From positions 26,850,848 through 26,914,847 of the forward strand of contig CM120643.1 of the NCBI GenBank assembly GCA_051362555.1: a DNA stretch of 64,000 bases, given 5' to 3'. Both the position numbers and the translations under genes were made by a program. Positions 289 to 59,614 of this stretch are shown here, piece after piece (positions within the stretch are counted from its first letter, which is position 1; the number at the start of each line of letters is the position of its first letter). Source of the stretch: Lingula anatina (lineage: Eukaryota > Animalia > Brachiopoda). The notes below the pieces were generated by a model. The model had not been told where the DNA came from and did not search any database. It worked only from the letters and a program-made list of their open reading frames with translations.

Positions 289-585
289 TGGAATACGCCA
301 GGTTGGGTGTCACGTGTCGTGTGGAGACATCATTATGCAAATTAGCAGACGGACGTGTTGTCCAATTGGATCAATTACGGTCTCTGATTGGAGGGTCCAC
401 CCTGCCCGATCAGTCTGGATCCACTGGAGAGGGATCTGGCGCCAATCCCATATTGAATACTCTCATGCAAGAAGAAACGTGCTTGGCTTTCGACCAGAAT
501 TGGGTTACTGGTCGGATTTTGTATGCATCTACACACTGCGACGAGCCTTTGCCGTATATATGTGAGTTAGATGTGGCCGTTTCTG
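289..585 (+). CDS. Gene A exon: C-terminal part of a divergent C-type-lectin-like domain
   Basis: EETCLAF...THCDEPLPYICE matches the CTLD C-terminal C...C-x7-C pattern; canonical EPN/QPD and WND motifs are absent. Confidence 0.55.
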
Positions 586-3500
586 GTACGTACGAAGTAC
601 ATTTTGAATGAATTTTAAATTATGTGAAGTACAATAGATATATTGTAGAATAGAGTCTAACATATATTCCATGTATGGTAATACATCAGGAAAAACATTA
701 ATTACAAATCGACAAAGGACTTCGGAGCTCAATGAGAAAGTTAAAAATTATGTTTTAGATAACATTTTGACGGATACTGTAATATTTGTAATTAATGAGC
801 GCGTTATATAAAGCATGGCTTCATCTTGGGACATTTGTGACATATCGTATTTTTAGAATCAGCTGTGGAAATCTCAGACCCAGTTGTTGACAAATTGACT
901 GAAACGCTCATCTACTCAGTTTCAAACTACGACCCAAACACCTTCGTGACGTTTGTAAAGGACGGTGTAGAAAATCTTCACCGCACTCTGGTTCCGGTGA
1001 GTTCGACGGTTACCTACCCCTTACGGGTACCGCCAACGCAATCTAGAGGCGAAAGGCAAGGGTGCTACTCTATTGAGGTTTGGGGAAGGAAGCCATACAG
1101 ACGGTATAGCTCACAAAGATACCTGCTGAAGTATTCTGGTTAGTAACATTTGTGATCTGTGTCAAGGTTTTTTAAAACGTATTCTGGAGAAACACAAAGT
1201 AAAATGTTTCTTTAATGTAACCATGATAGGCTATGAGCTGTCGGGCGAAAAACACGAACTTGGTTACACACGATGTACGCGGAATATATATAAGCCTTGA
1301 GTGAATGTTTTGAGATAGTCAGAAGAGTTAGAATCAGAACTACAGAATGTATTACTCTGATACTGTAACTTGGTAACTGACCGGTATTGCGATCTCAGCC
1401 TGGGGGAACTTCCGCTTGCTCGTTCACCTGATCTGTTGTCATACCTTTGTCTTATATACATATGTATGTGTGTTTGAGAGAGAGAGAATAAAGAATAATG
1501 ATAATGAAAGAAATAAAGAACAAAAGAGTGAAAAAGGAGTGCAGCAAAAAAAAAAAAAAAAAAAAAACGCACGGAAACAACTACCCTTCCACGTACATGT
1601 AACTCTTCCAACTTAATCATAGCCTATTCATTTTGATTTCATAATTCAGATATACAAACGTTTACCGGTACCATGAAATCAAGTTATCTCACGTCATCTC
1701 CGAAGGACAACACAGAACCATCCCTGTATGCCGGAGGAGTGGAACATCAGCCGGGTGTTCGACAAACTTCCTTTGCTCAGATCTCGAACGCCGTGAGAGG
1801 AATAGGCAATGCAGTTTCCAGAGAGTTTTTTGTAGAAACGGTTCTAAAAGATGTGAGGTAACATCAAGATATGCACGGCTTACTAGAGGTTATTGGCAAA
1901 TTTTAATCATAAAGATTATAATAACAACAGCAACAACAACAATAATAATACCGGTAATAATAATTGTATCTGGTTAGTATAATGAAAGTGGCGCGAAATT
2001 ATTGTTTCCTTTCCGTTTTCTATTTGAAAAGGTACGCAAATACTGGTGGACTTCTCATAGATTTTCGAGCATATGTTCAAACAGGCCCACGGAATAAACG
2101 AAGGGTCGCCTTGCCTGACAATAACATAGATGGCGTTCTGAGTGTTTTGGATACAGAGCTGCGAGGTGTTTTGGAGAGTTTCGGTTTTATTCCCTCTAGT
2201 CTTCGTCTACGGGTGGAAACTTGGGCAACAGGTTTGTCGACGAAAATCTTAATTTCACATGTATTTCAAAACCTAAACATATCTGGATAGTTATGTCTGG
2301 CGGTCAAAATGGGTATTTTGACAAAGTTCGTTTATATTTTATATTAATTATATAATGTTTTTTGGTTCTAGCATATGTTTAGAAAAAAGGCTAGGGCCTA
2401 ACAAGGTTTTACAATTGTTGCTTAAAGGTACTTACCCCGGTATAAACCGAGCATCGGTGGAGTGTGGATTCTCAGTAACATATTAACCACATTGAACCAC
2501 TTCTATTAGTTTCTTATACACGACTCAAATAAATTGGACATGGAATAAACTGAATAAATCACTCACTCTGCCATAAAAGATCTTTAGACTGCTCCTTTCT
2601 TTGGGTCATAAATGTTGCTACTAATTTTCCGTTATTCATGTTTGATGCCACTTCTACTTAATAAGGCCGTTGTAAATATTGATGTTTTACATCTTTCTAG
2701 TGAATAAAAACGGACTGAGGGGAATTAATACGTTTTAAAAAAAAGAATCGTCGACACGTGTTTATTCCCATACATACATTGAAGCAACGCGTGGGATTAT
2801 ACCGATATGTGCATTTAATTTGGTATTATTTACAACACGTTACAAGTGTGAAAGTGCACACGTGATGTCTCTTAGATTATCAAAATTAACTATTTTATTT
2901 TTTTCTTTTTAGCAAGAGGTCCTCTGCCAGTCCCAGGTAAGGTTTTGAGAAGGAATTATAGTGTTTGGTCCATAACGTGCGATAGCTAGTGTTGGGATTA
3001 ATGATCGTTTATTATAATTGATAAGACGACACGGAAAATGTGAATACTGTTAATCAGAATTGAGAATATATTATAATAATAACGTGACAGAATGACATCG
3101 AAATGTACTACATCTATGATGTTACTGCCACTAAATATTATTCAAATTAAGGATAATTTCCTGGTTTGACAATGTTAAACCGTGTGATTTATAAACACAT
3201 CTGGAGATATTGATATACAGACACCTAATATTCATGTTTTGTCAACCACTCTCGTTTCTACTTCAGGCACCAGACGATTAACCTTCACCAATTGTCCAGA
3301 CGACCTGCAGCGCCACACACCGTCCAATTCGTCACGGGTCACGTGGCCTACACCGGAAGTGATAGGTTACCCTGGGAACATCACGATAAAAGGAAACTAT
3401 TTCCCAGGTACCTTGTTTGCCCAAACCATTCCGATTTCTCACAACAGACAACTTTGGTTTAAAAACAATGCTTCTTCCCACTTTGAAAATATTGCGAACC

Positions 3501-5118
3501 GTTTGAAACGGAAGTATTCAGAAATTTGATGTATGAACTCTTTTTGTTACACAGGGTACATCACGATAAAAAGAAATTATCACCCAGATATTTTGTTTGT
3601 CCAAACCTAAAAGATGTTTTTTTCTAAATATTACTATCAGTTTGAAATGGCAAGAGAGGTTACCAAAGGAAAATATTCAGAAATGTGAGAGATTAACTTA
3701 CTCCCGACTCCCTCATAACCTCTAATGGTATAAACATATGCTGATTATTTTACAGGGCATGTTTTTCCCGTTGGATCAACTGTTGTCACGTACACCGCCA
3801 AAGACACTGCAGGAAACAAAGCTACTTGCAAATTTACCGTAGACGTGAAACGTATAGTGAAAGGTATGCGGAATATATATTAGACATAGTGTTTGTAGGC
3901 ATTGGCAGCGTACTATACTAGTGAATGATTGTTGTCTTGACAAAATGTTGGGTATTACTGGCTATTCTCTGGGTTCCTAAAAAGACATGACTTACTTGCT
4001 GTAATTTCAATGCTTTAAAATTAGCTTTGGCATGACCTCTGGCTTTTGTGAATTGAAAAAAATTTGTAATAGTTACTCTATTTTTGGCAGTACTGATATG
4101 TATTTTTGCTCTTTGGGCAACTTGATTTAATATAATTTGTCCTTTTTGGGAGGAAAAACGCAAACAAATGTTCCAATCCCGACAACATGTTCGAAGTAAG
4201 TGCCGTTCTTAATATCAATTTCTTTATCGTTTAAGAATGCCGAAATAAAATTCCCGTTCCGGACCGTGGTACTTTACGCTGTAGGCAGCCAGCTGTCGGA
4301 AGTGAACGATGTGACGTCACATGCCTTTCAGTCCCTAGCAACATCAGACAGAACCCGGATGTACCACAGAGTTATATGTGTAACCCGGAGGGAAAGTGGG
4401 AGCCGCTGTTTGAATGGGGCGCTGTTAAGACACTGGCTTGTGTTGGTGAGTGTCTCTGTTTGTTTTCACTGTGCTGCCATCTATACCGTAGTTTGGTAGT
4501 TCCATGGGGCGAAAGATACATGTGTCAATACATGTTCTAGTACAGATAAGCCAAGTTTTCACGCACCCGATTACGCGCGTGTTCACATGCTTATCTGATA
4601 AATCTCTAAAAGAGTATCGTTTGTGAACGGTTTAACTTCAGTTTTACTATTTAGTGGGTCAAAGAACATGGCTTATTTTGACAAAACACGGGACTTAATT
4701 GCTTTAAGTTGAGATGCTGCCCTATTTATGAATACCCTTAAAAGTAGCCTGAATGTACTAGCAAGGCATTTTTCTGTTCCATATTTACCATTACCTTTGA
4801 GTGCTTTTAAGCACTACGAACATAACCAATGGAAGTCTATATATGTTACAGCTCTAGAGCCACCAAGGAGTTATAGACTCCTGTTTGACGTGGAACATCC
4901 GGGAACCTGTGTGGATGATAACTACTTCAAGCCATTTGTCGTGGGTGAGCTGATTAAGTGGCTGAGAAACGCTGATTTGTGTCCCGAAGGAGATTTAATT
5001 AAGTTATGCCAAAGGTCACAGGTGAAGGTCATCTGTAGGGAGGAGGATAGAAGACGCAGGGACTCCCACGAGGGGGATCTTATTGTGAATTTGGCTCTTA
5101 ATGCGACTTTTACGTAAG

Positions 5119-5176
<58 letters not shown>

Positions 5177-6626
5177 TGCACACAGACACAAATTTCCATT
5201 AGAACTCTAATGTAGAATTTTAACCAAGCCTAGTCAGAACGGCTATTCTTCGTCTTCATTTCTGCCTGTGCGATAAGTATCCGGTAGGTGGGTATAGTTG
5301 CCTATTTCGCCTTTGGATTGATGACTGAAACCCCTAGCACACGTCACTAGATATACATGTACGTGGTTATTCCCCTAGTGAAAGTTAGCAATGATCAACG
5401 TGTAAAATATGAAATCGAATTAGAAATGAATGTAATCGATTTCTTATTTTTATAGCGAGGAAAACAGCACGGATGAGTATCAAAATGTTTTAGCTCTGGC
5501 CGAGAATGTGACAAACTTCATCGTCAGCAGTCAGTTTCGGTTTGAATATGGTGGAATAAATTACGCCTTTGAAACGGGATCGCCTGGCGAGGAAGAGACA
5601 ACTTGTGGTCAAGGGCAGATGAAGGTTCTGGACAAATACTGCGGTAAGAGGAAGACATACAGATACTTTTAACTTGCACAGCTTACTACCTGGTAGTAAC
5701 TACCGGTAATCAAGTTCAGCCCCAGTTTTATAATATACAACTATTTCTCTATTGATTTGTTTAAAATTTTTTTCAGTTAAATGTCCACCTGGCACAAAAT
5801 ACAACTCTCTCCTGAAAACCTGCGATTCTTGTCCAGAAAACACGTACCAGGAGCGTCGGGCGCAGTCCGTGTGTATCAAGTGTGAAGGGGACAAAACGTC
5901 GCCACCAGGGTCATTCAGTCGCTACGATTGTACGTATTATGAAACCGGGTTGTTTATTGTTTTTCTAAAAGTAATTAGCTAAACGTGTCCAATGCAATTA
6001 GCCTTTGCATTGCAATGTGAAGGAAATTTTAACAATTGACCCGTTATCCAAACCCGTTGAGAATTTGCGATCTATATTTTTTTTACATCACTGAATATTT
6101 TCAGTTTATTGTTTAACTATATTCGTCAGGTCAAGACACGGAGCAACCTACAGTGGTTACAAATACGCAAGTTGATATCTCACTCATCATCGGCGTGACA
6201 TTCGCCGTCATTGTGGCCGTCATCATCGCCGCCATCTTGGTTTACGCGGTACGGCGACGCTGTAGGAACAGCGAGAAAAAGGTAGAGAGGCACACCACGG
6301 CGCCAGCTGTAACTGACGCCCAAGACTACCATAATTATGCCTACGATTACACTGAAGCTCTGCCAGCTTCGCACCAGAGCACGGAGACAAATCACGATGG
6401 GAGATCACATACGGGACCAAGGACTGAACATACCACGAATGCCTCGAACTCTCACCGCGCGTATGAAGGTATGGTGCGAGATGGCGCTGAGCAGAAAGCG
6501 TACACTCAGTTAAGTTTGAGAGAAGAGGCAACGACACCTATTGGTGAATATGAAAGTATCTCAACTCACCACGGAGCTCAACAAAACGACTATACTCGAC
6601 TTAGGAGTAGTAGCGAGGCACAGTAA
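289..6626 (+). CDS. Gene A, 3' part (start upstream of window): type I membrane protein with CTL-like, Ig-like?, SEA-like, HYR, furin-linker, GCC2/GCC3, TM and Tyr-motif tail. Exons 289-585, 857-1138, 1650-1857, 2032-2231, 2913-2936, 3267-3407, 3756-3863, 4852-5113, 5456-5643, 5777-5929, 6130-6626
   Basis: All 11 exons have AG/GT boundaries with compatible phases and give one open frame to TAA at 6626. HYR signature (FTNCPDD...VTWPTP...FPVGSTVVTYTAKDTAGNKATCKFTV), GCC2/GCC3 signature (CPPGTKY...CDSCPENTYQ...CIKC), hydrophobic [25 protein letters not shown]. Confidence 0.85.
3267..3863 (+). CDS. Gene A HYR domain (exons 3267-3407 and 3756-3863)
   Basis: Spliced translation LTFTNCPDDLQRHTPSNSSRVTWPTPEV...YFPG/HVFPVGSTVVTYTAKDTAGNKATCKFTVDV. 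Confidence 0.85.
5777..5929 (+). CDS. Gene A GCC2/GCC3 (ephrin-receptor-like Cys-rich) exon
   Basis: VKCPPGTKYNSLLKTCDSCPENTYQERRAQSVCIKCEGDKTSPPGSFSRYDC; 153 nt, phase 1-1. Confidence 0.85.
6130..6626 (+). CDS. Gene A terminal exon: TM helix plus tail with NYAY, YEGM, YTQL, YESI, YTRL
   Basis: In frame with ORF 6153..6626; acceptor cag at 6127-6129; homologous to 26228-26685 and 54903-55411. Confidence 0.9.
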
Positions 6627-6910
6627 CTTAGAGCCATGTCGTAAGGCAACATTGGCGGTTTGGTGCCTAGCTGTTAATTCTATAATATATTTAGCCTGAA
6701 GATTTAATCAGCCGTGTTGTAAAACTTACGGCTCGAGTATATCTTTCTCTCTTTCATATCTGTATATGCAAGCTATTGCATTTATATATAGTACATTGTA
6801 TATCAGCTTATTGTATGCTTGGCGTGCTAAAGATACCAAATCTACGAAAATTACCAAATGTTAGTTTTGTACCTTTTTATCAAGCATTTTAACATATTTT
6901 ATCTTTTGAA

Positions 6911-6916
6911 AATAAA
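6911..6916 (+). promoter_or_regulatory. Probable polyadenylation signal of gene A
   Basis: AATAAA in a 3' context (caagc.tttt...tct..tgaaaataaat) that is conserved downstream of gene C (55766-55771). Confidence 0.5.
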
Positions 6917-7660
6917 TATATATTTATCGATTTATGAAATTTCGACGTGGATATGACTATTGCTCCTGCTATTTAAGCATACAATAATGTCCTTTATTAT
7001 GGTCTGATGATAGATTTTACACAAGAGTACAAACTTACAATTTTTTCATTTTATGTATATTACAATAACAACATTTTCCTGTCTGAAACGAAGGTAAAAA
7101 TATCTTTACTTCCACTATACAAGAAGAAACTGTTTGAACATTGGGAACTGAGAAACATTAGTAAACGCCCATGGTTTAAAAGGATACCGGTGGCTACCTG
7201 TTGTATGTAGCGTATTCCGAACTCCAAGCAACAAAACGGTTATTAAGCAATAAAAAGCATTATAAACACAAAATTAAGCATTAAGGCAGTTCATTTTCGC
7301 TTAGGTTAACAAGGGTTGTGTGTAGGCAGTAACACGTGTGAGAGGTTATCCTTGTCATTGGCTTTTATTGTACAAAAATACTTAATGCAATCAATTCATG
7401 CTATCCAATGCGATACAGTATAATTCAAAAGAAAAGCATACTGTGATAAAATAAATTAAAGAACACCGCCACTAAGAAAACACCATTTTCTGCTATTCAC
7501 GCCATGTGCTACCCTGAATTTAATAAATTACTGGAAATTTACCTCTATCATCAGCATGCATTTGCGTTAACTTATGAAAACTTCTCATCTTAGGTAATGC
7601 AGTACATAAAAGTGGAGTTTAATGATTGATATCAAAAGTGATCTGATCATGCAAGGGCTC

Positions 7661-9260: not shown

Positions 9261-9705
9261 TTTACCAATGGCCATGAGTGTTGGTAGCGTGAGGACAAGT
9301 AGTCCCGACATTCATTTAACGTGCAGCAGACGCTACACGGGGGTACATGTAAACCGTGAAAATGGCTGTCATCAGTTGGGGTCTGTTGGCGCTTTTACTA
9401 CTTCAATAACTGAGTGAAATTCGTTCTCTCACAAGGTACGTTCCTTTTTCATTTTTATATTTATTGATTAAAATGCATTATCTATTATATATGTGACTAT
9501 GTAGGTCTATCACTGCATGGTGGATCTAGGATCGATCAAGGGAGGGGCGTGGATCCAAAATTAGAATACAGCATTTTATCCTCCAAACAAACGAAAACAG
9601 GAAAGATAATTAACCCTATCCATGACTGGTGGCGTCGTTTACGCGTTTTATGTCATGTTTATCAGCTGTCGGGATATGTTTTCGGGCTATTTGCATCAAA
9701 TTTCT

Positions 9706-10711
9706 TTTTTATCCCTGCACTTTTGGGGCAAAAGTCGGGGATCATGTTATCCCGTCCGTCCGTGCGTCTGTGTGTTAGGAAGTTGAAACTTTAGTGATTT
9801 GTATACCCAGCATCAGGGAGGTGCATGTGCACTTAAGAATTTTAATGCAACAGAGGGTTGGGCTGTACCCTGGGAGGTGGTTGATTCTAAATTCTTATGG
9901 CTTTGTAATTTCTGCTATCTGCTCCTAGACCATTAGAGTTAGGAAGTTGAAACTTTGGTGAATAGTTAACCCATCATCAGAGATGTGCATGGGCACTTTG
10001 GAATTTTAGTGCCACAGGGGGTTGGGCTGTCCCCGGGGGTAGTTTATTCTAAATTCTTATAACATTGTAATTTTCACTATCTCCTCTTAGACCGTTGCAG
10101 ATAGGAAACTGAAACTTTTGGGATTGGTAGACCCAGTATCAGGGATGTGCATGGGCATTTTGGAATTTTAGTGCCACAGGGGATTGGACTGTCCCCTGTG
10201 GGGGGGGGGGGGGGGTGTTTCTAAATTCTTTTCGCATTGTAATTTCTGCTATCTCCTCCTAGACCATTGCATGTAGGAAGTTGAAACTTTGGGAATTGGT
10301 AGACCTATAATCAGGGAAGTGCATGGACACTTTTGGAATTTTAGTGTCACAGGGGTTTGGGCTGTCCCTGGGGGTGGTTGATTCTAACTTTTTATCACAT
10401 TGAAATTTCTGCTATCTGCTCCTAGACCATTAGAGTTAGGAAGCTGAAACTTTGGTGAATAGTTTACCCATCATCAGGGATGTGCATAGGCACTTTGGAA
10501 TTTTAGTGCAACAGAGGGCTGGGCTGTTCCCTGGTTATATTTATAAAGATTTTTTTTACATTTATATTTTTAAATACCTTTGGATGAAGCAGTGATGTGT
10601 GTGTATGTGTGCGTACGTGCATGTGTGGTAAGTGGTCCCTAGGGCTGAGCTGCTCTTGATAATATGGGGAAGTGCGGGGATATGCGAAGGCTACCCATCG
10701 ACACTATCTAA
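9706..10711 (+). mobile_element. Helentron-associated (HINE/DINE-1-like) non-autonomous element with about 5 internal ~165-bp tandem units
   Basis: Inserted in a T-run (empty site in gene C near 35905); subterminal inverted repeat atccctgcact / agtgcggggat; (ccgt)n at the 5' end; unit aggaag(t/c)tgaaacttt recurs near 9777, 9941, 10103, 10276 and 10438. Confidence 0.65.
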
Positions 10712-11259
10712 TTTTTTTATATTGTTCGTAAAGGACCCCGCCAGATACATGTACTTCAATACTAAGCCATTCGGAGCCTGGTGTTATTTTTTCTAAAAAT
10801 TTCAAGCAGATTGTTTATTTAGGTAGATATGATAACACTAAGTGGTCAAACTAATTACGTTAAAATATGGATGTAGAATTTGACAGAGCTTTTTATGCAA
10901 GGTCGCTTCGTTACGTCCGCCAAGATGGTTATACATATATATTTTCATCTCCGTTTATTGTCTATTTGTTCGTCACCATCCTAACACAAAGAGTGACGGG
11001 TGGATTTTGATGAAATGTTCAGGGTAGGTCAGATATCGGATAAGTTGGAATCGATTAGGGTTCGGTGGAGATTATTTTATCTATCCACACTATTCATATA
11101 AGTAAAAACCTCTATCCGTCCAGTGAAGAATTACTGTCACGCATGTGCTATTAGCCCCCCCCTCTTTCTTCTTGTTATATCTTACTCAGCTCGACAGATG
11201 CAACCTGCATCCCGTAATATGTACCTTTTCCGTCCATAGCGATCGGACAACTGCCACAA

Positions 11260-11990
11260 TCAATAACAGCATGAAACACATGTTAAACTTATTTTATGAG
11301 ACAGACATATGGGACTATTTCTGTTTTGTGTGTTTAAGTGCATTCCAAATATTTTTACCCATTTTTGTGGCCGGCTCAAATGTTTTTGTCATGTCAAAAA
11401 CTTTCGAAGTGCATTCCAAGAGGGAATTTTTCGCAATATCCCTATAATATTCCAACTACATTCGAGCTGCATTTCAGAGGTATTATACCTGGAATGTGCA
11501 AGAATCATTCTAGGCGGGTTCGATGTGCATTCTTAGTATTCCAGAGGCATTCTTACAAAACCGTAATATTTTATGATAATTTGAAATTCCCCCCCGAATA
11601 TGGTACGAATTTTTAAATTGAGTAATTCCGGCTTGATTCCTACTGATTTCGAATAAGTTTGACGGGGGCTTTAAGTCACTTGTCAGTTCGAATATTCCTC
11701 TAATGTGATCAGAATGTATCGAATGCTGTCGGAATGCCGTGAGAATATTTAGAATGCAGTCATAGTGCAGTTAGAATACTGTTCAAATGTCATTCGATAA
11801 ATTTCCACTTTGAATGCACTTCGAAAGTTTTTGACATGACAAAAACAATCGGGATGCCGCAAGAATGGGTAAAATATTTAGAATGCACTCGGAATTTTTA
11901 GAATGCTCTTCGAATATCCAGGAGCGCACAAAGAATTGTCTTTCCGACGGCATTCTTGCTCATTCCGCCTCTAGTGTGACGGGGGTATAA
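11260..11990. mobile_element. Truncated palindromic MITE, possibly PIF/Harbinger-like
   Basis: Internal inverted symmetry (tttttgtcatgtcaaaaactttcgaagtgcattc near 11382 vs gaatgcacttcgaaagtttttgacatgacaaaaa near 11811); end ctagtgtgacgggggta; absent from the paralogous gene C intron. Confidence 0.5.
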
Positions 11991-14294
11991 CTTAGGGGGT
12001 TGCTCTTCAGCATTCTGTTGCCCACTAGAGAGTAGCATTTAGTCATCTTGATGCAAAAGGCCATTTGTTATTTACAATAAATGCACCAAAATAAATCTTT
12101 AGGGGCAACAAAGGAAAAAAATAACATAAAAAAGCTTTCATGTGGTTTCCAAGAGCTACAATTTGTTTTTTTCAAACAAATGGAAAGCATGCTGTGCTTA
12201 ACAACGTTTATTTGTGACACTCTTAAGAGTCAGTCTAGAAATAATTTGGTTTCTTGCCTTTTCGACAGGGTTGTCTGTATAGCGTGCTATAGATTATTAT
12301 CAAAGAAATTGGTTGAGATTGGTAAAACACACAATAGTACCGATGTACATGGAGGTAAAACTATTTTGAATACATTATTATAGATAAACGATAATCTGCG
12401 AAATATCTACCGGTATATAGTTGCAATTTAAAGTTTAGAGTCTCTCGATCTCTTCAGATGAAATATAAAATAAGGAAGGATGTATTTTCTCATTATTTTG
12501 ATTATTTTTGCTGTATTCAGATCGTTTGGAGCAGGTAGAAACTTTCCCTCTGATGTCAGAGCACCCAGAATAGAATATTGCACTTTGAGCTATACCCTGT
12601 ACAGAATTTTTGTAACAGACTACTAAAGCGCCCCCTATGGTCAGAGTGTACATGTAGTAAAAATCCGTCCGGCTGTCAAAATGTTTACAGTGTTGGACAG
12701 CACGTATTTTCTGGTTTTTATCATTTTTCATCCATCGTAATGGAGGTGGTAATTTATTGTCGCGCCTATTAAGATATTAATATAATAAAAATGAGTAAAC
12801 AAATCGTAATTTTCGAAAATTTTTGAATATGATGTTAAATGTTAAGACATTTAAAGATTGCTAAAGCTTCCAAGTAAATCCAGTAACAGTAATAAAGGTC
12901 TAACACTGTTTGCCCTGATTTCAAAACCACATCCGGGCCCCATTCACCTCATTTACTTTTCAACAAGTATGTCATTTTCCAGATTTAACAAGCCAGTGTA
13001 CAAGACACAATATTACTCGGCGCAAATTGCAACACCATGGATGGAAACAAACTGGATCAACTTGTAACACACGTGAGTAACACGCGTGTACATTTATAAT
13101 ACAAGTAAAATCCCAGTGGGCAAATTATGTTGTTTTAACGTTGAAACGAGGTTGAACCATAACGTTGATAATACGTTGGATAAACATTGGATTTGAAAGT
13201 TGACTCAACGTCAGATAACAACATTGTATCAACCCCAGTTGTTAGACAATATTCTTGAATGAAAGACATTAAAATGGCCTTAAATGTTTTTATTTTTGGT
13301 ACAAAACACAGGTACACAATTATAACGTACTATGTAAAAACATCCAAGTGCCTGCTTTGTCTATTTTTTCAACGCATTTAGCTCCTAAGCATGTTTTGCA
13401 CCTAAGCATGGTACAGGTACACCCTTTTAGCCTGGATGTGTTTAGCAGTAGGGCATGTTTGATGGCTAAATATATGTAGGGTATACATGTATGGCCTTTA
13501 AGTTCAAACTTCTAAGGTTTAGATTAATATATACAGACTTGACATTTAATATGGAATATTTCACTTTCGAAGGCAAGCGTAGGTAAAAATGCGTTCTTTT
13601 TTTAAAAAAACTCCGATCTCATATAAGATATGTCAATGAAGAATTGTGTATCAGGTGTGTAGCTACCAAATAACTGAATTCCAGGTTTGTTGCACTGCTG
13701 AATTATGTTATATGCAGTGATTTAATTGGGTAGTGCTCCTTGAAATTTGAAATTTTGCATGCAAGTGGTTGGTTTTGCAGTGTGTAAAATAAGCTACGCC
13801 GTGCTTTACAAATTTATTAATCTGTGGCAGAATGGTGCGAAAAATACAGACATTACCAGACAGATAATTGCGCCAAACGAAACGGTCCGCACAGGTTTAT
13901 AGAGTAATGCCCAGACTGATGTACCTACACAGAGGCCACACACAATGTATTGAAATCTTACCACCAGGGTACAGGACCCACTGTCTTTCGGGATATGCTG
14001 TAGCAACTAAACAAAAACCACCCAGTCCGTTCAGAATGAGGGGTAAATTGCCACCAAAACGCATTTTCAAGGTCCTTCAAGAACACCAAACTGGTTTTAT
14101 CCGGTTAGAATACCAGACGACCTCCGAGGAACCCACTGTAAACAGCAAAGCATCGTTGTATGTTTTTCTAATGAACTGGGGACCTTGGCCGTTTCTTGGT
14201 TGAACACTGAAACCTCGTGGCTTTCTTTATTGAGGTCATATTTCACCTGTACCGCTCAACTAGTCAAAACAGAGTTTACAGACGTCCAGAAGAG

Positions 14295-14991: not shown

Positions 14992-15004
14992 GTAAAACTT
15001 ATCT

Positions 15005-15410: not shown

Positions 15411-15433
15411 CCCCATAGCTATTCAACGGACAA

Positions 15434-44830: not shown

Positions 44831-44877
<47 letters not shown>

Positions 44878-47800: not shown

Positions 47801-49378
47801 GAGATCGCAGACCTCCGCCAAGGCAGCAAAGTATCCACCAAACGCCGTTTCACCCCTAAACTTTCCTTCTGTAATGATTTAGTTTTTTTATTTTTTATTT
47901 TTGATTATTGATTGATAATTGTTCCGGATCACCACTAAAAACTAATCATCTGTTCCTTGGCCCACTTCTGACAGTTCCTGAAAATTTCATCAAAATCAGC
48001 CCATAACTTAGTTCTTTTTTATTATTGATTATTGATTTACTATTGATCCAGATCACCACCAAAAACTAATCACTTCTACGCCAACCCATTTCTGACGTAC
48101 CCTGAAAATTCCATCGAAATTCATCCATAACTTTTTGAGTTATGCTGATAAGAAACAGTCGGCCAGACAGACAAACAAACAGAGGTGAAAACATAACCTC
48201 CTTTCCATCTGAGCAGGAAGGCGAAAAATAATATTTTAACATGTTTTACTTTTTTCCAGATGTTGACGAGTGTAGTAAAGGAAATCATGCCTGTGAACAC
48301 AACTGTAACAATACACGTGGTAGCTACACGTGTTCATGTAGAAATGGGTATGAACTGGTCTCCGATGGACGTGGATGTACAGGTAAATCTTGGACATAAT
48401 AACGAAAGGACGTGAAACGCGGAGCAAGATCAAAGGATAATCGGCCTAGCGCGAGCTCTTCATGAAACCATGTGCGTTCGGATCACGTGACCTCCCGTAC
48501 TACTACTACTACTACTGTGAACTGCATATCGCAATTGTCGATTACTTTTTGTGTCATTTGGGCAGGTAGTTCGCGATAACGTGAGGCAATCCTTCGGGTG
48601 GATGAGACAATAAACTTATAGAGATTAAGTATAAGTACAATTTGTTCTATCAATATGGAAGCTATGTGAGAATTTGATATGTTTGTTCATGGAGGAATTC
48701 AAAATGCCCTATGTGGTGAAGGCAATCTTGTTTGTTTCCCTAAAATGAGCATTCAAAATTGTATAATTGTTGTGTAGTATAATTGTTTTTAGCGATGATC
48801 CGATAGGAAAATATTTCTAGTGTCGAAAATTTTTCTCTGTGTGACAAATTAGTCTGAGATGCGGCAGTAATGAAACCTTAAATCGTGTCTTGAATTAAAA
48901 TGACGCAATTTCTCTCCGATTTCTTAGGCTCGCTGACATTTCTCTAAGGCTGGTATTCTTTATGCACCTTTTAAATAAATATGACAAAAACACTGCTGTT
49001 TACTTTATGTATAAATTCGTGCTCCTTGCAAAAATATGCGCGATTTTTGGGATGATAATTTATATTTTTTTACTCTCAATATCGGCTCTCGGTGCAATAT
49101 GGCACCACACACGCATTTGTGACACACAAAAACGCACTCGGGGTGCTTTTAATATCTTTTTATCAAAGTTGACATCAACACTACTGTGAACTGTATATAT
49201 ATGTTCATTTTACCGGCTAACGTCTTCTCGACTTTGGGGATGCTAATTAATATTTTTTTACCATCAATATCGGTTCTCGTTGCAATACGGCAAAACACAT
49301 ACATTTGTGACACACAAAAACGCACCCGGGGTGTTTTTAATATCCTTTTATCAAAGTTGACATCAACACTACTGTGAA

Positions 49379-49465
<87 letters not shown>

Positions 49466-52400
49466 CATTTTACCGGCTATTGTCTGCTCGAATTTGGGGA
49501 TGTTAATTGATATTTTTTTTTACTCTCAATATCGGCTCTCGTTGGAAAATGGCACTACACATGAATCGGCCGATACATTGCTTTTAAACCAATTATACAT
49601 CAGCTCTACATAGATAATACAATCTTGAAAACGATAACAAGTATAGACAAACGCCAGAACCCGTTTTAATGAGGTAACAGGAAAAAGATACTAAAAACCC
49701 GAAACAAATTTCCACGTGTTGACGCAAGCCTATGTGCTCACAACTGCAAGATGGCGGCAATGCTGTACCATAGCAACCACGAGGGACCGCGAGAAATTGC
49801 GTTATCCATGCAAAAGAACAAAAGAAATTCACTGAGGCATAGCGCGCGCTACCTTGATAATAAGCTGTTCAGGCTCCCGTGAAGATATTAAAACAGCTTA
49901 TTTGAGACAATAGACGAATGTTTACCCGAACGCACATAGCTTCAAAGGAAATGCCGCGTTTCACGTCCTTTCGTTAATATGTCCAAGGGTAAATACAATA
50001 ATCTGCCCATTTACCGGTACATTATACGCGTACCTACATTATAGTGCAAATGACAGAGATGCTTGCTCATTCTTAAGTGCTCTTGAAGTGATGTGATCGT
50101 TAAAAAAGGTTAAAAATAATCAAAACCAGAAGAAAACGAGTGTTGGACGTCACATTATGGCTGTGAGTAATCTTCATGGCAACTACATCTGCTCTTGCAA
50201 TAAAGGTTTTGTCCTTGCCGCTAACAAGAAATTCTGCAACTCTGTGTCAAAGATGTCGTTTAACTCGAAAACTTTCTTTGTTCAATTCATTTTTTTGTAA
50301 TTTCTCGTTATGCATTCATAAGGGTCAACATTTTTGCCTAAGGTTGTAGTTCCAACAAGAAAAGCACTCCGAGAGCGCAGACCTCCTCCAAGGCAGCGAA
50401 GTCTCCACCCAATGCCGTTTCACCCCTAAATTTTCATTTTGTAATAATTTAGTTTTTTGATTATTGATTATTGATTTACTATTGATCCAGATCACCACCA
50501 AAAACTAATCACTCTGACCTACCCTGAAAATTCCATCGAAACTCATTCATAACTTTTTGAGTTATGTTGATGAAAGACAGACAGACAAACAAACGGGCGA
50601 AAACATAACCTACTTTGCGGAGGTAATAACTCCATCTAAGGAAGGTGAAAAATAATATTTTAACATGTTTTACTTTTTTCCAGATGTTGACGAGTGCAGT
50701 AACGGGACTCATGCCTGTGATCACAACTGTCACAATACACGTGGTAGCTACACATGTTCATGTAGAAATGGGTATGAACTGGCGTCCGATGGACGTGGAT
50801 GTATAGGTAAATAGTATGATATTAAGCTTGCGTGTCACAGTGCACAGGCAGGGGCGTAACCAGACCTTTAAAAATTGTACGCACAGATTTTTAAAATTCC
50901 CAGCAAAATGTAGACTAACACAAGAGAGATGTACCACACATCGCAGCTTAATTTCCATTAATAAGAAAATCATCATTAAGTCAGAAATATTCTCGCAATT
51001 AAAAAAGTTTCAGTATTCTTATTACCCAGAACGGTATATTTATTTAAAAGGAGGCTAGCTTCGCATATGTGGAGCCCCCTTCGAAAAATCCTGGATCCAC
51101 CTCTGAGTTGAACTAACATACGGTTTCATTCACCTTACATGTGGATGCATGGCTCCCTAGAACAACCAATTGTACGACACGACAGAGCTCTAATACATCT
51201 AAGTTTAATTATTTGTTTGTAAAAATTGCCCATGTCACCTTGTTAGTTTGGAGGGGTAAGTTGGGTCAAGTCCGTGTCAAAATTCTTTGAAGCTTTGCAG
51301 GAAAAATTCTTCCTTTGTTTCTCTAGCTCCTTCTTAAACCTGGTGTCCAGATTTTATCTAGTGCCCCCAGGGTTGCGGGAGCTGCTCTTTGAAAATAACA
51401 CTCAGGCAGATTTTTACCTGAGATAAATATTGCCAGCGAGAATGCATTCGATATTCTCAAGAAAGAGGGTACAGAAGAGTTGAGGGCCACTGAACCCTCC
51501 AATATTAAGAGGTAAAGGAAGTTCCAGTTAGATGGACGATTAAGATAGGACTTGTTAAGGTTACAGGCATTGTTTACCTCAGTTTGCAAGACGGGGGGAG
51601 GGGGGGGGGGGGGTCAGAACAATTGTGCCTATACAGTTGATACAGAGGATATGTGCATACAGGTGACTTTAATAAGCAGAGGATTTTCTTTTATATTCCG
51701 TGAAAAATACACTAAATTTATATAAAATAAAATCATGGTTGGCCAAAAAATTGTACGCACAGTGCATCCGTGCGTATGCCTAGTTACGCCCATGCACAGG
51801 TCAGTGGCTTGCTTTATAAATATTTTTGTGGTGAACATTTTCCAATGTAGTAGTATATGCTAGATGCAATTTTGATCTTAGTAAATGATAAAAGCAAATG
51901 TCTTTTCCAATAAAACCGATGGATTTTGTAACATTTGGTCAAATTAAACGGATCCACTTTTTTTACTTCTCAGATATTGACGAGTGCAGTAATGGGACTC
52001 ATGCCTGTAATCACAATTGTCACAATACACGTGGTAGCTACACGTGTTCATGTAGAAATGGGTATGAACTGGCCTCCGATGGACGTGGGTGTATAATTAT
52101 TGGTAAATAATATGTATAGGTTAATAATATGCCACTGGACTTAAAGTCATAATAACTCTTCATTTTGGCCAAAAATTGAATTTTCCTGGAGTAAACGGCA
52201 ATTTTCCCGTACTAACCAATGGTCAGCACCCTCAGCTTCAGAGATAACTTGACACTAACCTCTTCACTATAGCCTATCTTCATCGTGTCAAGTTACCTCT
52301 GACCACATTCGATTGCCCCCGCCGCCCGCCAATCAAATTTAAAGCCCGCACTCAATGACTCATTGAACGATCTAGCCAATGAACGCGAACGAATCAAAGC

Positions 52401-54687
52401 GCGCTTTGTTCAAATCCGGACCAATCAAAGATAAGGCTGAATATCAGGGACTTGCCGTAACCTGCGGGCAGCACGCAAAATACATCATCCCTCAGTAGAT
52501 AAGGATGCAGGGCCTCAAACTGCACTGGTTTCAATTCCGATATACTCATATTTTGCAAAAAAACAACAGATAACTTAACACATTATTTTACGTAGTCACT
52601 CGTAGGAGACGCCATGCTTTCTTTGTGTAAGGTTATGCACTCGGAACTACTCGGATGTCTCCGCACTCGACAATAACTTTGTTGTTAGTATGGAGCTTGC
52701 GGAATCAGACGAGGATTACCGATTGACGGTCAACCAATCAGCGTTTTCACCAAACTTTGGTGAAAAATTTTGAAACTTGGATTCGATTGGCTTATATAAA
52801 CTAGGTCAAACTATTTTCGTCAGAGGTAACTTGACACGATGAAGATAGGCTATAGTGAAGAGGTTAGTGTCAAGTTGTCTCTGAAGCTCAGGGTGATGGT
52901 CAGCGACCCCATTCCTGCATTCAAAGTTAGTCCAGGTTTTTTTTCCTAAACGTTTGTTTTTTTTTTTGTTAAAATCTCTTAAGAGATTTTAACTGACGGA
53001 TCCCACTCTGACTTTGCATAGTCACGCGATATCGAGCGATAGTTTTTGGTGACCTACTTAAAACCGCGGGAAAAGCAGACAACAACAACACTACATAACA
53101 ATAATATAAGATTCATAAGATATATTCGTCTTATTGCTTAAAATGCATTTATATCTACAATGTGTGCTATTCTGGGCTTTTCTTTATCCAACGCACTGTA
53201 CAAAAACTCGCAACTTACGTCTGCGTATTGTATCAGGCTTTTCGCGCCAGAAGTTATTTTGGTCTCGAATGAACGCGAGAATCCGCGTGACATCCCAACG
53301 TCATTGGCAACGGATGCCTTAACGACCGGGAAGAAAGGCATCGAAAGCCCTATTGACAAGCACAGGTTTTAGTTTTACTACAATAACGGCCGTTTTAGTG
53401 GTAAATGCAATATAATATAGTTCCATGCGTTGTTTACAATGTATTTCTTGCGGCATTTTGAATCTCAAAGGAAGAGTTATTATTGCATTAATAGATGCAT
53501 TTTATTCTTAGAAGATCATATAGCAAATGTCATTTCCAATACGGCTTATGATTTTGGTAATATTTGGTCACATTACACAATTCAACATTTTTTTTTTTAC
53601 TTTTTCAGATGTTGACGAGTGCAGTAAGGGGACTCGTGTCTGTGATCATAACTGTCACAATACACGTGGTAGCTACACGTGTTCATGTAGAAATGGGTAT
53701 GAACTGGCCTCCGATAGTCATGGATGTACAGGTAAATAGTATTCTCACGGATTAGCGTGTCGCAATGCGCATGTCAGCTGCTTGTTTTGTACATTTCTTG
53801 TGGTGAACATTTTTGTAGGGTAGTATTGTATGCTAAATGCAATTTGTTCTTAGTATATCATAAGATCAGATGCATATCCCAATATGACCGATGGATTTTG
53901 TAACATTTGGTCACATTAAACAGATCTACCTTTTTACTTTTCAGATGTTGACGAGTGCAGTAATGGAACTCATGCCTGTGATCACAATTGTCACAATACA
54001 CGTGGTAGCTACACGTGTTCATGTAGAAATGGGTATGAACTGGCCGCCGATGGACGTGGGTGTATAATTATTGGTAAATAATATTATGTTTATGGACTCG
54101 CCTGCAAGGCAGCGAACATTGTTTGCCGACGTTTAAGTACTAGACTAGAAACTTAACTTGCTGCTATTTGAACTGCCTGACAATCTGCTTCATGGTCATT
54201 CCAGCTTCATGGCTTCCTATTATTTGCCATTCAAACGCCATCTACAAGTTTTCGTGCTGTCATTTTTGGAAAGGCTTTTTAAAAATGCCCCCAAATCGTA
54301 TCCTTCATTTATGGCTCGCAAAAACTGTTATTTATAAGAGGTTGTACTTAATTAGCCTGAACGTCACGCTTATATAATGACAGATATAGTAAACTTAGTA
54401 TACCATACTTGAAGGGTGCATCTGGTAAGCGATGTGCCGTTACTCTGTGCAGATATTATTTTAAGTGTAGGGCCTACTTCTCGTCTTATCATGAACTAAG
54501 TCGATCACCTACCACTTAGGGTTAGTCTCTTCAATCCCCGAAAAGGAGCCAAGGAGTTATAACCCCGTGGTTGAAATCTTTGAGTTTGAAATGATAATAA
54601 TACTGGGTACCGAGTGTAAAAGAAGCAATATATCTTTTAAAAATCGATAATGTAAGGGCATGCACGCACAAGGCATTCAGGCTTTTT

Positions 54688-54732
<45 letters not shown>

Positions 54733-55411
54733 TAAAATAAAAATAAAGAAATTTAAAAAAATTAAAAAAGTAAAATAAATAAATAAATAAAATAATAATA
54801 GTAATAATAAACTGTCCACTGTCCTAATATCAAACCATTGAAAATTGCATTGTATGAATTAGAAAAAAAACTGTTACGTTCTCGTTTATACTTTTACCAT
54901 AGGTCAACACTTGGAGAGGGTACTTGTTGCAGCAACGCCGAGTGATCAGGGTACAGCAACGCCTGTAGGTATTATCACCGGCGTGACATTCGCCGTCATT
55001 GTGGCCGTCGTCCTCATCGCCATTTCGGTTTTCTTTGTATGTCGACGCTATAGGAACAGGGACAGAAGACCAGCGACAGAACGCTCCTCGGCACCAGCTG
55101 TTACCCAGGCGCAGGATTACGACAATGTTACCTATGAAAACACGGAATTCCTGTCAGCATCAAAACACAGAACGGAGAAGAATAGTGATAAGAGGCAACA
55201 TACGGGGCCTTGGACAGTGCAAACCGGTACTACTAATGCCTCGAACCCAGACCAGCCCTATGAAGGCATTCTGGTAAAGGACAGCGAGGAGCAGAATGCG
55301 TACACAAAGTTAATCTTCGGAGGAGAGGTGCCGACACCTATCGGTGAATATGAAACTTTATCAGCCTACCAACGCAGAGCCCAGCAAAACGACTATGAAT
55401 ACTCGGCTTAG
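35564..55411 (+). CDS. Gene C: signal peptide-EMI-NIM/EGF-12x cbEGF-TM-ITAM-like tail receptor, about 790 aa. Exons 35564-35637, 38155-38277, 39879-39982, 40402-40494, 40697-40813, 43087-43203, 43357-43473, 44312-44434, 44673-44795, 46936-47058, 47305-47427, 48260-48382, 50684-50806, 51974-52102, 53609-53731, 53945-54073, 54903-55411
   Basis: Manual splicing with AG/GT sites gives a 2373-nt open frame: [22 protein letters not shown]; HVC...[17 protein letters not shown]...CCPGW (EMI); [29 protein letters not shown] (NIM-type); D(I/V)(D/N)EC...CxNxxGSYxCxCxxGY repeats; TM; tail. Confidence 0.88.
36072..37153. mobile_element. About 1.1-kb non-autonomous TIR element in gene C intron 1
   Basis: Ends CATCCCCAGAAATGC / GCATTTCTGGCCATG; absent from the paralogous gene B intron; second copy at 56881-58037. 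Confidence 0.7.
38155..39982 (+). CDS. Gene C EMI domain (exons 38155-38277 and 39879-39982)
   Basis: [74 protein letters not shown]: EMI Cys pattern ending in CCxG(W/Y). Confidence 0.85.
40402..40494 (+). CDS. Gene C NIM-type EGF exon
   Basis: [30 protein letters not shown] closely fits the NIM consensus CxPxCxxxCxNGxCxxPxxCxCxxGY. Confidence 0.85.
40878..43002 (+). mobile_element. 5'-truncated L2-clade LINE inserted in a (TAT)n tract of a gene C intron
   Basis: RT ORF 41167..42723, 3' UTR ending aataaa(tta)n; the same intron unit without the insert is at 43204-43356. Confidence 0.9.
41167..42723 (+). CDS. L2-like reverse transcriptase (ORF2 C-terminal part, 518 aa)
   Basis: [56 protein letters not shown]. 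Confidence 0.9.
   Translation: MKSMNSKSSALDPVPTHNIKECITVLAPVILKIVNLSFTTGIFPSNCKTAIVRPLLKKQGLCKQVFKNYRPISNLPFLGKFLEKMACIQLNNYLAQNSLYGKFQSAYREGHNTETALLRVHNDIMLSLDKHKDVILVLLDLSAAFDTIDHNILLHRLQYRFGVKDLALNWLTSYLKDRTQNVSIESLLSEPTFLEYGVPQGSVLGPLLFSLYMLPIEDIIVKHGLNTVIFADDTQIYVTSESNRSMAITSIETCLVEIRNWMKTNMLALNDGKTELIWFTSRSKSDSGNAMKSDICIGGVNINPSSYVKDLGVTFDQYATMDRRISEICKSASYSLWRISKIRDLLDKTSTEKLVHAFITSKLDYCNSLLYGLGKNHLNKLQLIQNSAARLVTKMGWNNREHITPVLMELHWLPVRERILFKILCVIFKAVTENKPLYISELMKQHQHGRVTRSSTFSHLLLEHSVLEKKAGKFYGERAFMIYAPKVWNTLPSEIRAAGDIDTFKKLLKTHIFRIAYQ
44878..46730 (+). mobile_element. Penelope-like retroelement (frameshifted RT plus GIY-YIG endonuclease), inserted in (TA)n
   Basis: [43 protein letters not shown], and [18 protein letters not shown] near 46310-46370; flanked by TA microsatellite. 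Confidence 0.9.
46669..46698 (+). ncRNA. Decayed minimal type I hammerhead ribozyme motif in the Penelope 3' end
   Basis: ccCTGAAGA aagaat GAAAC tg GTC gggg: both core boxes, GUC site and a short helix I are present; helix II is not paired. Confidence 0.5.
47783..48205 (-). mobile_element. HINE/DINE-1-like element, copy 1
   Basis: aagaaaagcactccgag...(gaca/aaca)n...aaaacataacc; absent at the matching gene B site (near 25012). Confidence 0.55.
48389..49987. mobile_element. 1.6-kb non-autonomous DNA transposon with 34-bp TIRs and 7-bp TSD GGTAAAT
   Basis: cttggacataataacgaaaggacgtgaaacgcgg / ccgcgtttcacgtcctttcgttaatatgtccaag (1 mismatch); TSD at 48382-48388 and 49988-49994. Confidence 0.85.
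50353..50629 (-). mobile_element. HINE/DINE-1-like element, copy 2 (co-duplicated with the exon unit)
   Basis: Same sequence and same insertion point as 47783-48205. Confidence 0.55.
50849..51794. mobile_element. MITE with CAGGGGCGTAAC / GTTACGCCCATG termini (hAT-like)
   Basis: TIRs as stated, flanking direct repeat cacagg; related left end at 62572. Confidence 0.7.
52227..52895. mobile_element. MITE with about 77-bp TIRs and 8-bp TSD ATGGTCAG (hAT/P-like)
   Basis: caccctcagcttcagagataacttgacac...ctctgac and its inverted copy (2 mismatches); TSD at 52219-52226 and 52896-52903. Confidence 0.85.
54903..55411 (+). CDS. Gene C terminal exon: TM plus tail with YDNV/NVTY/YENT, YEGI, YTKL, YETL
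   Basis: In frame with ORF 54911..55411; [26 protein letters not shown] followed by RRYR. Confidence 0.9.
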
Positions 55412-59308: not shown

Positions 59309-59420
59309 TGAGTTGACGCACCTGAAATTCAGGACTTTGATAACCGATAACAACCCACCCTGTATAAACATAACATCAAATGTATCTAAATTATTTTTCT
59401 TTAATCAAATATGATGTCAT
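59309..59420 (+). promoter_or_regulatory. Conserved proximal upstream block of gene D
   Basis: gagttgacgcacctgaaattcaggactttgataaccgataac...tgtataaacataacatcaaatg. Confidence 0.5.
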
Positions 59421-59540
59421 TTCAGGGCTTTTAACGGCTCGCCTTGAGTGTAAGTAAAGGTGGATGAATATGTCAGAAAAGTTGTTGTTCCGACATTCAT
59501 TTAACGTGCTGCAGACGCTTGACGGGGGTGAACCGTGAAA

Positions 59541-59614
59541 ATGGCTGCCACCAGACTTAGTCTGTTAATGCTTATACTGCTTCAGCAACTGGGGGATGTC
59601 CACACTTTGACAGG
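59541..59614 (+). CDS. Gene D exon 1 (signal peptide); gene presumably continues beyond the window
   Basis: MAATRLSLLMLILLQQLGDVHTLTG, 74 nt, phase-2 donor gtacgt, same ccgtgaaaATGG context as genes B and C. Confidence 0.8.

What the first reader, a model, noticed from the sequence alone, without database searches (positions are those of the whole stretch)
289..59614. Tandem cluster of invertebrate receptors sharing an ITAM-like signalling tail
Seen: four head-to-tail paralogs; three show homologous TM+tail exons. Gene A tail: YEGM-x9-YTQL-x12-YESI-x10-YTRL. Gene C tail: YEGI-x10-YTKL-x12-YETL. Both have an upstream NxxY (NYAY, NVTY). Known: YxxL/I-x6-12-YxxL/I is the ITAM that recruits Syk/ZAP70/Shark; NPxY plus YxxL is the signalling layout of Draper/CED-1/MEGF10; YxxM binds PI3K p85 and YxN binds Grb2. 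Inference: a lineage-specific, rapidly diversifying innate-immune, phagocytic or recognition receptor family, with one intact gene, one pseudogene, one gene with a different ectodomain and one more beginning.
Basis: partly seen in the sequence, partly recalled or inferred. Interest (0 to 1): 0.8.

Follow-up and report, generated by a model that had tools for sequence, protein, structure and literature searches.

The report
Brachiopod receptors sharing swappable tyrosine tail
In the lamp shell Lingula, two unrelated kinds of cell-surface protein end in copies of the same membrane-anchor-and-tail exon, whose tyrosine motifs resemble the activation motifs of immune receptors and come in two versions that were likely exchanged between neighbouring genes, so these are likely recognition or engulfment receptors of a kind already known from oysters, flies, hydroids and sea squirts.

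Summary
The motifs are real, at the stated spacings (A 9/12/10, C 10/12), and exceed shuffled tails (P≤0.0002). Database matches point to Lingula anatina. The genes are not four paralogs: A (lectin-like/HYR/sushi-like/GCC ectodomain) shares only the terminal TM+tail exon with an EMI–EGF–cbEGF family (B broken, C intact at 790 aa, D first exon only). A is spliced onto that exon in 1 of 4 RNA runs; no RNA was obtained for B–D. New here: EMI is 42% identical between paralogs against 82–97% for EGFs, and the motif block occurs as an old long and an old short type on a nearly identical proximal tail (breakpoint ~55270, P=0.0002). The 'NxxY' lacks proline, so it is not NPxY; no pair has the strict 6–8 spacing; tyrosines are not more conserved than other residues (6/11 vs 56/106). 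The tail was found only in Lingula. Best reading: Src/Syk-type recognition receptors, working like Draper without being Draper; binding untested. Not noted before by this scan. Comparable clusters are published for Hydractinia and Botryllus.

The parts
289..6626 (+). Gene A, 3' part (12 exons; 5' end lies outside the window): lectin-like, Ig-like and sushi-like parts (read by eye), HYR, GCC2/3 (Ephrin_rec_like), TM and tail. Matches RefSeq LOC106166424 / LOC106154583
   Evidence: 855 aa open, all GT-AG, 834/855 identical to P0003; HYR and Ephrin_rec_like above the Pfam cut-off; 10 of 11 introns bridged by reads of run X7
6130..6626 (+). Gene A terminal exon, phase 1: stalk, TM, 124-aa tail with DYHNYAYDY and YEGM-x9-YTQL-x12-YESI-x10-YTRL
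   Evidence: splice 5929>6130 GT..AG in 17 reads with 15 starts
6847..6933 (+). 3' flank of A, homologous to the 3' flank of C (55702-55788)
   Evidence: 75% over 88 bp, E 3e-9
9362..26685 (+). Gene B, broken EMI-EGF-cbEGF-TM-tail gene: stop in the signal exon (9407), no homologue of the first EMI exon, second EMI exon (~12983-13072) shortened and out of frame, damaged cbEGF exons at 22409 and ~22827
26228..26685 (+). Gene B terminal exon, short tail type: DYDSVTYEN ... YEGM-x10-YSQL, then stop; decayed remains of the third motif follow the stop
   Evidence: distal block 25/30 identical to P0001 and 12/30 to C
35564..55411 (+). Gene C, intact model: signal peptide, EMI (38155-38277, 39879-39982), EGF (40402-40494), 12 phase-1 cbEGF exons (40697-54073), TM and tail; 790 aa
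   Evidence: 17 exons, all GT-AG, no internal stop; EMI E=8.6e-4 on its second half, below the Pfam cut-off; no RNA obtained
54903..55411 (+). Gene C terminal exon, phase 1, long tail type: DYDNVTYEN ... DQPYEGI-x10-YTKL-x12-YETL
55259..55411 (+). Distal tyrosine-motif block of C; mosaic breakpoint against B at about 55270
   Evidence: B vs C mismatches 10/227 before and 27/76 after, permutation P=0.0002
59541..59614 (+). Gene D first exon (signal peptide); the rest is not in the window
   Evidence: 25 of 27 residues identical to the N-terminus of P0001, XP_013384434.1; no further EMI exon downstream

Best explanation
Gene A and the EMI-EGF genes B and C end in copies of one membrane-anchor-plus-tail exon, likely joined to two unrelated ectodomains by unequal crossing-over in a tandem array, and the tail is likely a phosphotyrosine docking platform that lets these proteins act as recognition or engulfment receptors. 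Shown: shared phase-1 terminal exon; A spliced onto it; C open; EMI far more divergent than the EGF stalk; stalk length varies (12 cbEGF in C, 4 in P0001); two old motif-block types on a nearly identical proximal tail. Inferred: the EMI tip (C, D) or the lectin-like region (A) binds a microbial, dying-cell or non-self surface and clusters the receptor. A Src-family kinase would then phosphorylate the tail. Widely spaced YxxL/I pairs would recruit Syk or Shark, the proximal pY-x-N and YEN sites Grb2-type adaptors, and YEGM PI3K p85 (motif preferences recalled, except ITAM and YxxM). Long tails (A, C, P0021) would give a full activating signal. Short tails (B, P0001: YxxM plus one YxxL) would give a weaker, PI3K-weighted or hemITAM-like one. 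Gene conversion or crossing-over would re-pair tip, stalk and motif block. The direction of the exon transfer is not resolved.
For: Motif excess over shuffles. C and P0021 fit the full oyster consensus D/ExxYxxL/I-x6-12-YxxL/I (DQPYEGI/DQPYESI-x10-YTKL). Draper's functional pair Y934/Y949 is 15 apart; pairs here are 13-16 apart. In the six non-redundant tails the +3 residue stays M/I in 6 of 6 at motif 1, L in 5 of 5 at motif 2 and I/L in 3 of 3 at motif 3, while +1/+2 vary. The tail exon is under purifying selection between A and B/C (dN/dS 0.33-0.43). EMI 30/71 identical against EGF 30/31 and cbEGF 82-95%. Mosaic tail: informative sites 8:3 proximal against 0:13 distal, permutation P=0.002; distal B-C identity (70% nt) is no higher than A-C (72%). 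A transcript joins A's ectodomain to the tail. The nearest Atlas clusters for P0001 are Draper/MEGF10 at 0.90, a lead only.
Against: No binding, phosphorylation or immune-challenge data. Tyrosine columns are no better kept between A and C than others (6/11 vs 56/106). 0 of 6 tails has the strict 6-8 spacing, and the Hydractinia paper's 6-9 rule with L/I would also exclude every pair here. No NPxY. P0023 has lost all motifs after YEGM; B and P0001 lost the third. B vs C tail dN/dS is 0.83, which recombination explains but relaxed selection would too. No RNA for C, so the EMI-EGF-to-tail join rests on my exon model and the RefSeq model P0001. A was seen in only 1 of 4 runs, tissue unknown. Lingula Syk/Shark was not checked here. 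No proteome background was available, so I cannot say how common such tails are among Lingula single-pass proteins. The Atlas hits share 156-162 features, under its 170 guide.
Confidence: 0.58

Rival explanations
1. Endocytic or scavenger cargo receptors: the YxxΦ motifs are unphosphorylated AP-2/clathrin sorting signals, and the proteins take up particles or matrix components without kinase signalling.
For: YxxΦ is also the AP-2 sorting consensus (recalled). Strict ITAM spacing is absent. Losing one or two motifs is tolerated in B, P0001 and P0023, as expected of redundant sorting signals.
Against: Three to four motifs at steady 13-16-residue steps, with Glu at +1 and pY-x-N sites, look more like SH2 docking (SH2 preferences recalled). 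Two distinct motif blocks have been kept for about as long as the A split.
Confidence: 0.17
2. Non-immune adhesion or tissue receptors (mantle, lophophore, development) that signal through PI3K and Grb2, as PEAR1 does through a YxxM motif; the ITAM look is incidental.
For: YEGM is in 4 of 6 non-redundant tails and a YEN motif in 4 of 6. PEAR1 signals through a single YxxM. A's ectodomain carries HYR and GCC modules found in matrix and adhesion proteins. A was seen in only 1 of 4 runs.
Against: A hypervariable EMI on a conserved stalk, gene loss and copy turnover are more usual for recognition genes. C and P0021 have no YxxM.
Confidence: 0.15
3. Only A is a working receptor; the EMI-EGF-tail genes are by-products of tandem duplication in a transposon-rich region, drifting towards loss.
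For: B is broken in several ways; C's introns hold transposons and duplicated exons; B-C tail dN/dS is 0.83; no RNA for B-D.
Against: C is open over 17 exons and 790 aa. B-C EGF exons show dN/dS 0.11 over 190 codons. RefSeq holds further open copies of both tail types (P0001, P0021).
Confidence: 0.1

Closest known systems
Drosophila Draper / C. elegans CED-1 / mammalian MEGF10 (PMC8092387 and PMC6219719, passages seen)
   Same: N-terminal EMI, EGF-type stalk, single TM, tyrosine-rich tail with a widely spaced YxxI/L pair; nearest Atlas clusters to P0001
   Different: Stalk is calcium-binding EGF, not NIM or laminin-type; no NPxY; tandem, fast-turnover cluster rather than one conserved gene; tail also sits on an unrelated ectodomain (A)
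Hydractinia Alr family (bioRxiv 10.1101/2022.03.04.482883, passages seen)
   Same: Clustered invertebrate single-pass receptors with duplication, exon shuffling and ITAM-bearing tails
   Different: Alr ectodomains are Ig/Fn3; their ITAMs are defined at 6-9 spacing and some carry ITIMs; here no ITIM, and one tail exon serves two unrelated ectodomain types
Botryllus fester co-receptors, FcoR (bioRxiv 10.1101/2024.10.16.618699 and PMC12065747, passages seen)
   Same: Ectodomains and tails re-paired by intergenic recombination; alleles or copies that differ in their tyrosine motifs
   Different: FcoR swaps ITIM against hemITAM in Ig/sushi receptors with a known allorecognition role; here the exchange is between long and short activating-type blocks inside one exon, function unknown
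Oyster CgIgR (PMC6994640, passages seen)
   Same: Lophotrochozoan receptor with D/ExxYxxL/I-x6-12-YxxL/I, shown to recruit Syk and promote phagocytosis; C and P0021 fit that consensus
   Different: Five Ig domains, one pair with a shorter spacer; single gene
Biomphalaria PTC2 cluster (PMC7494358, abstract seen)
   Same: Cluster of hyperdiverse single-pass TM genes with gene-size indels in a lophotrochozoan
   Different: The words tyrosine, EGF and intracellular do not occur in its main text, so no shared tail can be claimed

Membership tests
ITAM, strict | YxxL/I-x6-8-YxxL/I spacing (recalled vertebrate consensus) | tested here: not met
   0 matches in 6 of 6 tails
ITAM, wide (Draper / CgIgR definition) | YxxL/I-x6-12-YxxL/I in a cytoplasmic tail | tested here: met
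   2 pairs each in A, C, P0002, P0003; 0 in B and P0001, whose first motif is YxxM; definition
ITAM, wide (Draper / CgIgR definition) | Acidic residue three before the first Tyr | tested here: inconclusive
   Met for the first pair of C (and the first motif of B, P0001, P0021); not met for any motif of A
ITAM, wide (Draper / CgIgR definition) | Src-family phosphorylation and binding of Syk/ZAP70/Shark tandem SH2 | not testable with these tools
   No eukaryotic partner sequence or assay available
Draper/CED-1/MEGF10 | N-terminal EMI domain | tested here: inconclusive
   Pfam EMI E=8.6e-4 (C, second exon) and 0.018 (P0001), both under the curated cut-off; absent from A's models
Draper/CED-1/MEGF10 | Run of NIM / laminin-type EGF repeats | tested here: not met
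   One plain EGF, then calcium-binding EGFs (EGF_CA, cEGF); no EGF_laminin hit
Draper/CED-1/MEGF10 | NPxY motif in the tail | tested here: not met
   No proline at -2 in 8 of 8 aligned tails
Draper/CED-1/MEGF10 | Orthology by sequence | tested here: inconclusive
   Tail profile finds only Lingula proteins; EMI-EGF search found only itself among 4 candidates; Atlas 0.90 is a lead; no tree with Draper sequences was built
MEGF6 (RefSeq name of P0001) | Secreted EMI-cbEGF protein with a long run of laminin-type EGFs and no TM (recalled) | tested here: not met
   P0001 and C have a TM helix and tail and no laminin-type EGFs
Paired activating/inhibitory receptors (Alr, FcoR) | ITIM-bearing members beside activating ones | tested here: not met
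   No ITIM or ITSM in 6 of 6 tails; members outside the window not seen
Paired activating/inhibitory receptors (Alr, FcoR) | Ig-superfamily ectodomain and role in allorecognition | tested here: not met
   No Ig family hit in P0001-P0003; role not testable

The most novel reading that the evidence does not exclude
Lingula has assembled its own Draper-like engulfment receptor family from scratch, by grafting a mobile TM+ITAM exon onto an EMI-cbEGF gene. It keeps two old signalling cassettes (triple YxxL/I against YxxM plus one YxxL) that recombination swaps inside that exon independently of a hypervariable EMI tip, giving a germline mix-and-match of ligand tip, reach and signal strength.
Probability: 0.25. 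Interest if true: 0.7.

Novelty: new variant of a known kind. Interest (0 to 1): 0.42.

Why it matters
If the tail does recruit Syk or Shark, this would be a brachiopod ITAM receptor family; none turned up in my searches. It would also be a compact natural case of how a signalling tail spreads to new ectodomains through one phase-compatible exon. The long and short tails sit on a nearly identical proximal tail, so they make a ready pair for testing how motif number and wide spacing (9-12) set phagocytic output. The general design (clustered, recombining invertebrate receptors with tyrosine motifs) is already known, so the gain is a new lineage and a new architecture, not a new principle.

Tried and rejected
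No whole genome is held for this window, so family size could not be counted by tblastn. No RNA holder was listed by the index; only same-species raw runs were offered. No read data were obtained for B, C or D. Gene A ectodomain search: 18 of 6022 candidates passed, 1 full-length (P0002, Lingula) and 17 HYR-only matches covering 20% or less. Atlas search on A's C-terminal half: no usable hit. PDB sequence search with P0003: 0 hits. Single-sequence AlphaFold of P0001: mean pLDDT 40.9, only the TM helix is reliable; not used for fold search. Two of the 4 tail-profile hits (P0022, P0024) are unrelated tandem-repeat sequences and were dropped. Rejected: four paralogs; NPxY; inhibitory pairing (no ITIM); a variable-exon/constant-exon single gene, since A, B and C each have their own tail exon and stop; positive selection alone as the cause of the B-C distal divergence, since synonymous divergence rises too (pS 0.35 vs 0.06). 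The original Draper ITAM paper (PMC2493287) is not held. PMC10514466 had no whole-word ITAM or EMI passage. No complex prediction was sent: no Syk/Shark sequence was available. Supplements were not opened; those of the two bioRxiv preprints are closed and may hold tail alignments that bear on the comparison.
Full report
OBSERVATION. A six-frame scan and translation place three TM+tail frames on the + strand. With splice sites fixed, the terminal exons are A 6130-6626, B 26228-26685 and C 54903-55411, all entered in phase 1. B has YEGM-x10-YSQL and then stops. In 20,000 shuffles of each tail, two wide-spaced L/I pairs arose with P=5e-5 (A) and 2e-4 (C); none of 6 tails has a 6-8 spacing, an ITIM or an ITSM. 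The shuffle test is post hoc and has no proteome background.

SOURCE AND FAMILY. The C tail exon found 2 proteins among 1299 longer candidates, both Lingula anatina RefSeq models on a contig of the same length (219,623 bases): P0001 (XP_013384434.1, named MEGF6, 442 aa) and P0002 (XP_013384429.1, 1523 aa). P0003 (XP_013400436.1) clusters with P0002 and is 834/855 identical to window gene A; whether P0002 and P0003 are alleles or paralogs is open. A three-sequence profile of the cytoplasmic tails against 1.84 billion representatives gave 4 hits at E≤0.001: P0021 (Lingula, C-like tail only), P0023 (Lingula, A-type ectodomain, truncated tail) and two unrelated repeat sequences that I dropped. The tail was thus found only in Lingula, at this sensitivity.

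GENES. A: 12 in-window exons, 855 aa, open. Pfam finds HYR and Ephrin_rec_like above cut-off; lectin-like, Ig-like and sushi-like parts are my reading by eye and had no Pfam hit. Outside Lingula only HYR matches came up (17 of 18 hits). Run X7 bridges 10 of 11 introns, two of them together through a 24-base micro-exon, including 5929>6130 in 17 reads; the unlisted one borders a skipped simple repeat. X1, X3 and X4 show no ectodomain exon cover, X1 only a trace on the tail. Reads are mostly 90-99% alike, so they come from another individual or population. C: 17 exons, all GT-AG, 790 aa: signal peptide, EMI, EGF, 12 cbEGF, TM, tail; a 13th, truncated cbEGF exon at 43740 was left out of the model. 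B: stop in exon 1, first EMI exon missing, second shortened and out of frame, damaged cbEGF exons. D: first exon only, 25 of 27 residues as in P0001. No RNA evidence was obtained for B, C or D.

EXON SHARING. A resembles B and C only over 6186-6618 (69-71% nt), plus 88 bp of 3' flank shared with C; the preceding introns show no real similarity. Tail-exon dN/dS is 0.43 for A-C and 0.33 for A-B. A tree of 8 tails splits A-type from EMI-type at 100/100, and pairs B with P0001 (91/89) and C with P0021 (94/89), both under the tool's star threshold. One unequal crossover in last introns of neighbouring genes, or one deletion, would produce this (inference). The direction is unresolved: P0023 is a long branch, 83% identical to P0003 in the ectodomain but 58% in TM+tail.

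DIVERSIFICATION. C against P0001: EMI 30/71, first EGF 30/31, four cbEGFs 82-95%. B against C: five EGF exons dN/dS 0.11 over 190 codons, tail exon 0.83. The tail value comes from a mosaic. B and C are 65/71 identical in the proximal tail but 12/30 in the distal block, where B matches P0001 25/30 and C matches P0021 23/30. The best breakpoint is at about 55270, with 10/227 mismatches before and 27/76 after (permutation P=0.0002); the amino-acid triplet test gives P=0.002. Distal identity is 70% nt for B-C, 72% for A-C and 65% for A-B, while proximal identity is 95% for B-C and 67-68% to A. So the long and short blocks are about as old as the split from A, and the proximal part was likely homogenised or exchanged recently. 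Synonymous divergence rises in the block as well (0.35 vs 0.06), which fits recombination better than selection alone.

MOTIFS. In six non-redundant tails, 22 of 81 ungapped cytoplasmic columns are invariant, among them three Tyr columns; motif 2 is in 5 of 6 tails, motif 3 in 3 of 6, motif 4 in A alone. The +3 residue stays hydrophobic wherever a motif is kept. Against this, Tyr columns are 6/11 identical between A and C and other columns 56/106. The 'NxxY' is DY-x-N(V/Y)-x-Y (Ser for Asn in B) without proline; I read it as a pY-x-N site (recalled Grb2 preference), not as NPxY.

MECHANISM. See Best explanation; every signalling step is inferred. Support from print: Draper's ITAM is given as YxxI/L-x6-12-YxxI/L with Y934/Y949 necessary and sufficient for Shark recruitment (PMC6219719, passages). 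Oyster CgIgR recruits Syk through such a motif (PMC6994640, passages). PEAR1 signals through one YxxM to PI3K (PMC9731471, passages). Syk homologues are reported for molluscs and annelids (PMC5978004, passages and section 5; bioRxiv 10.1101/046789, passages), and an amphioxus Syk phosphorylates an ITAM receptor (PMC13344425, passages). None of these passages shows a Lingula Syk; a Lingula TULA protein is listed in PMC10253181 (one passage).

COMPARISON AND NOVELTY. The EMI genes work like Draper by layout, and the Atlas puts Draper/MEGF10 clusters nearest (0.90, 156-162 shared features, lead only), but they fail two defining features, NIM/laminin EGFs and NPxY (PMC8092387, passages). Hydractinia Alr and Botryllus FcoR already show clustered receptors with shuffled exons, recombined tails and swapped tyrosine motifs. 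Searches for Lingula+ITAM (4 papers), brachiopod+ITAM (12) and Lingula/brachiopod/immune/EMI (105, 20 listed) showed no title or abstract on this cluster; I opened 3 of them. Further searches supplied the comparators. A 2018 survey of Lingula immune genes (Gerdol and colleagues, recalled, not seen) could list these genes. The scan's own notes hold no look-alike. Three unchecked notes on other pieces of this genome (paired ITIM receptors, a variable-exon TIR locus, an SVEP1-like exon fusion) suggest that receptor shuffling is common in Lingula; they did not change my reading.

VERDICT. Real feature, partly misdescribed. New variant of a known kind; interest 0.42. The exon sharing and the mosaic tail are well supported (about 0.85); Syk/Shark-type recognition signalling is the likeliest function (0.58).

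Noticed in passing
window 14292-20262: LTR element in an intron of B, with 96-99% identical terminal repeats and a 1170-aa frame carrying DUF1759, integrase zinc-binding and DUF5641 (BEL/Pao-like, label recalled) but no reverse-transcriptase hit; likely a recent, internally deleted copy.
   Followed up: partly
window 40655-43535: A 530-aa reverse-transcriptase frame (41131-42723) sits between two cbEGF exons of C that encode the same peptide (40697, 43087), with a third near copy at 43357; the insertion may have accompanied the exon duplication.
   Followed up: partly
window 47305-54073: Six near-identical cbEGF exons of C, all phase 1-1, so any can be skipped in frame; stalk length could vary by splicing as well as between genes.
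   Followed up: no
window 44900-46065 and 25348-25749: A decayed reverse-transcriptase element in a C intron, and a DDE_3 (Tc1-like) fragment in the last intron of B.
   Followed up: no
window 2441-2602: Intronic repeat in gene A that collects reads with loose ends from all 4 runs, a dispersed element present in many transcripts.
   Followed up: no
window 9774-10534 and 28211-29532: Tandem repeats of about 164 bp and about 390 bp units in non-coding DNA.
   Followed up: no
window 32931-33095: Short PHD-finger-like frame (E=3e-4, below cut-off) between B and C, probably a transposon remnant.
   Followed up: no
window 26686-26740: Behind B's stop codon the DNA still aligns with C's third motif and tail end, so the short tail arose by decay of a long one.
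   Followed up: yes
P0023 (LOC112041518): A-type paralog with a repeated sushi-like module and a tail that ends soon after YEGM; ectodomain 83% but TM+tail 58% identical to P0003.
   Followed up: partly
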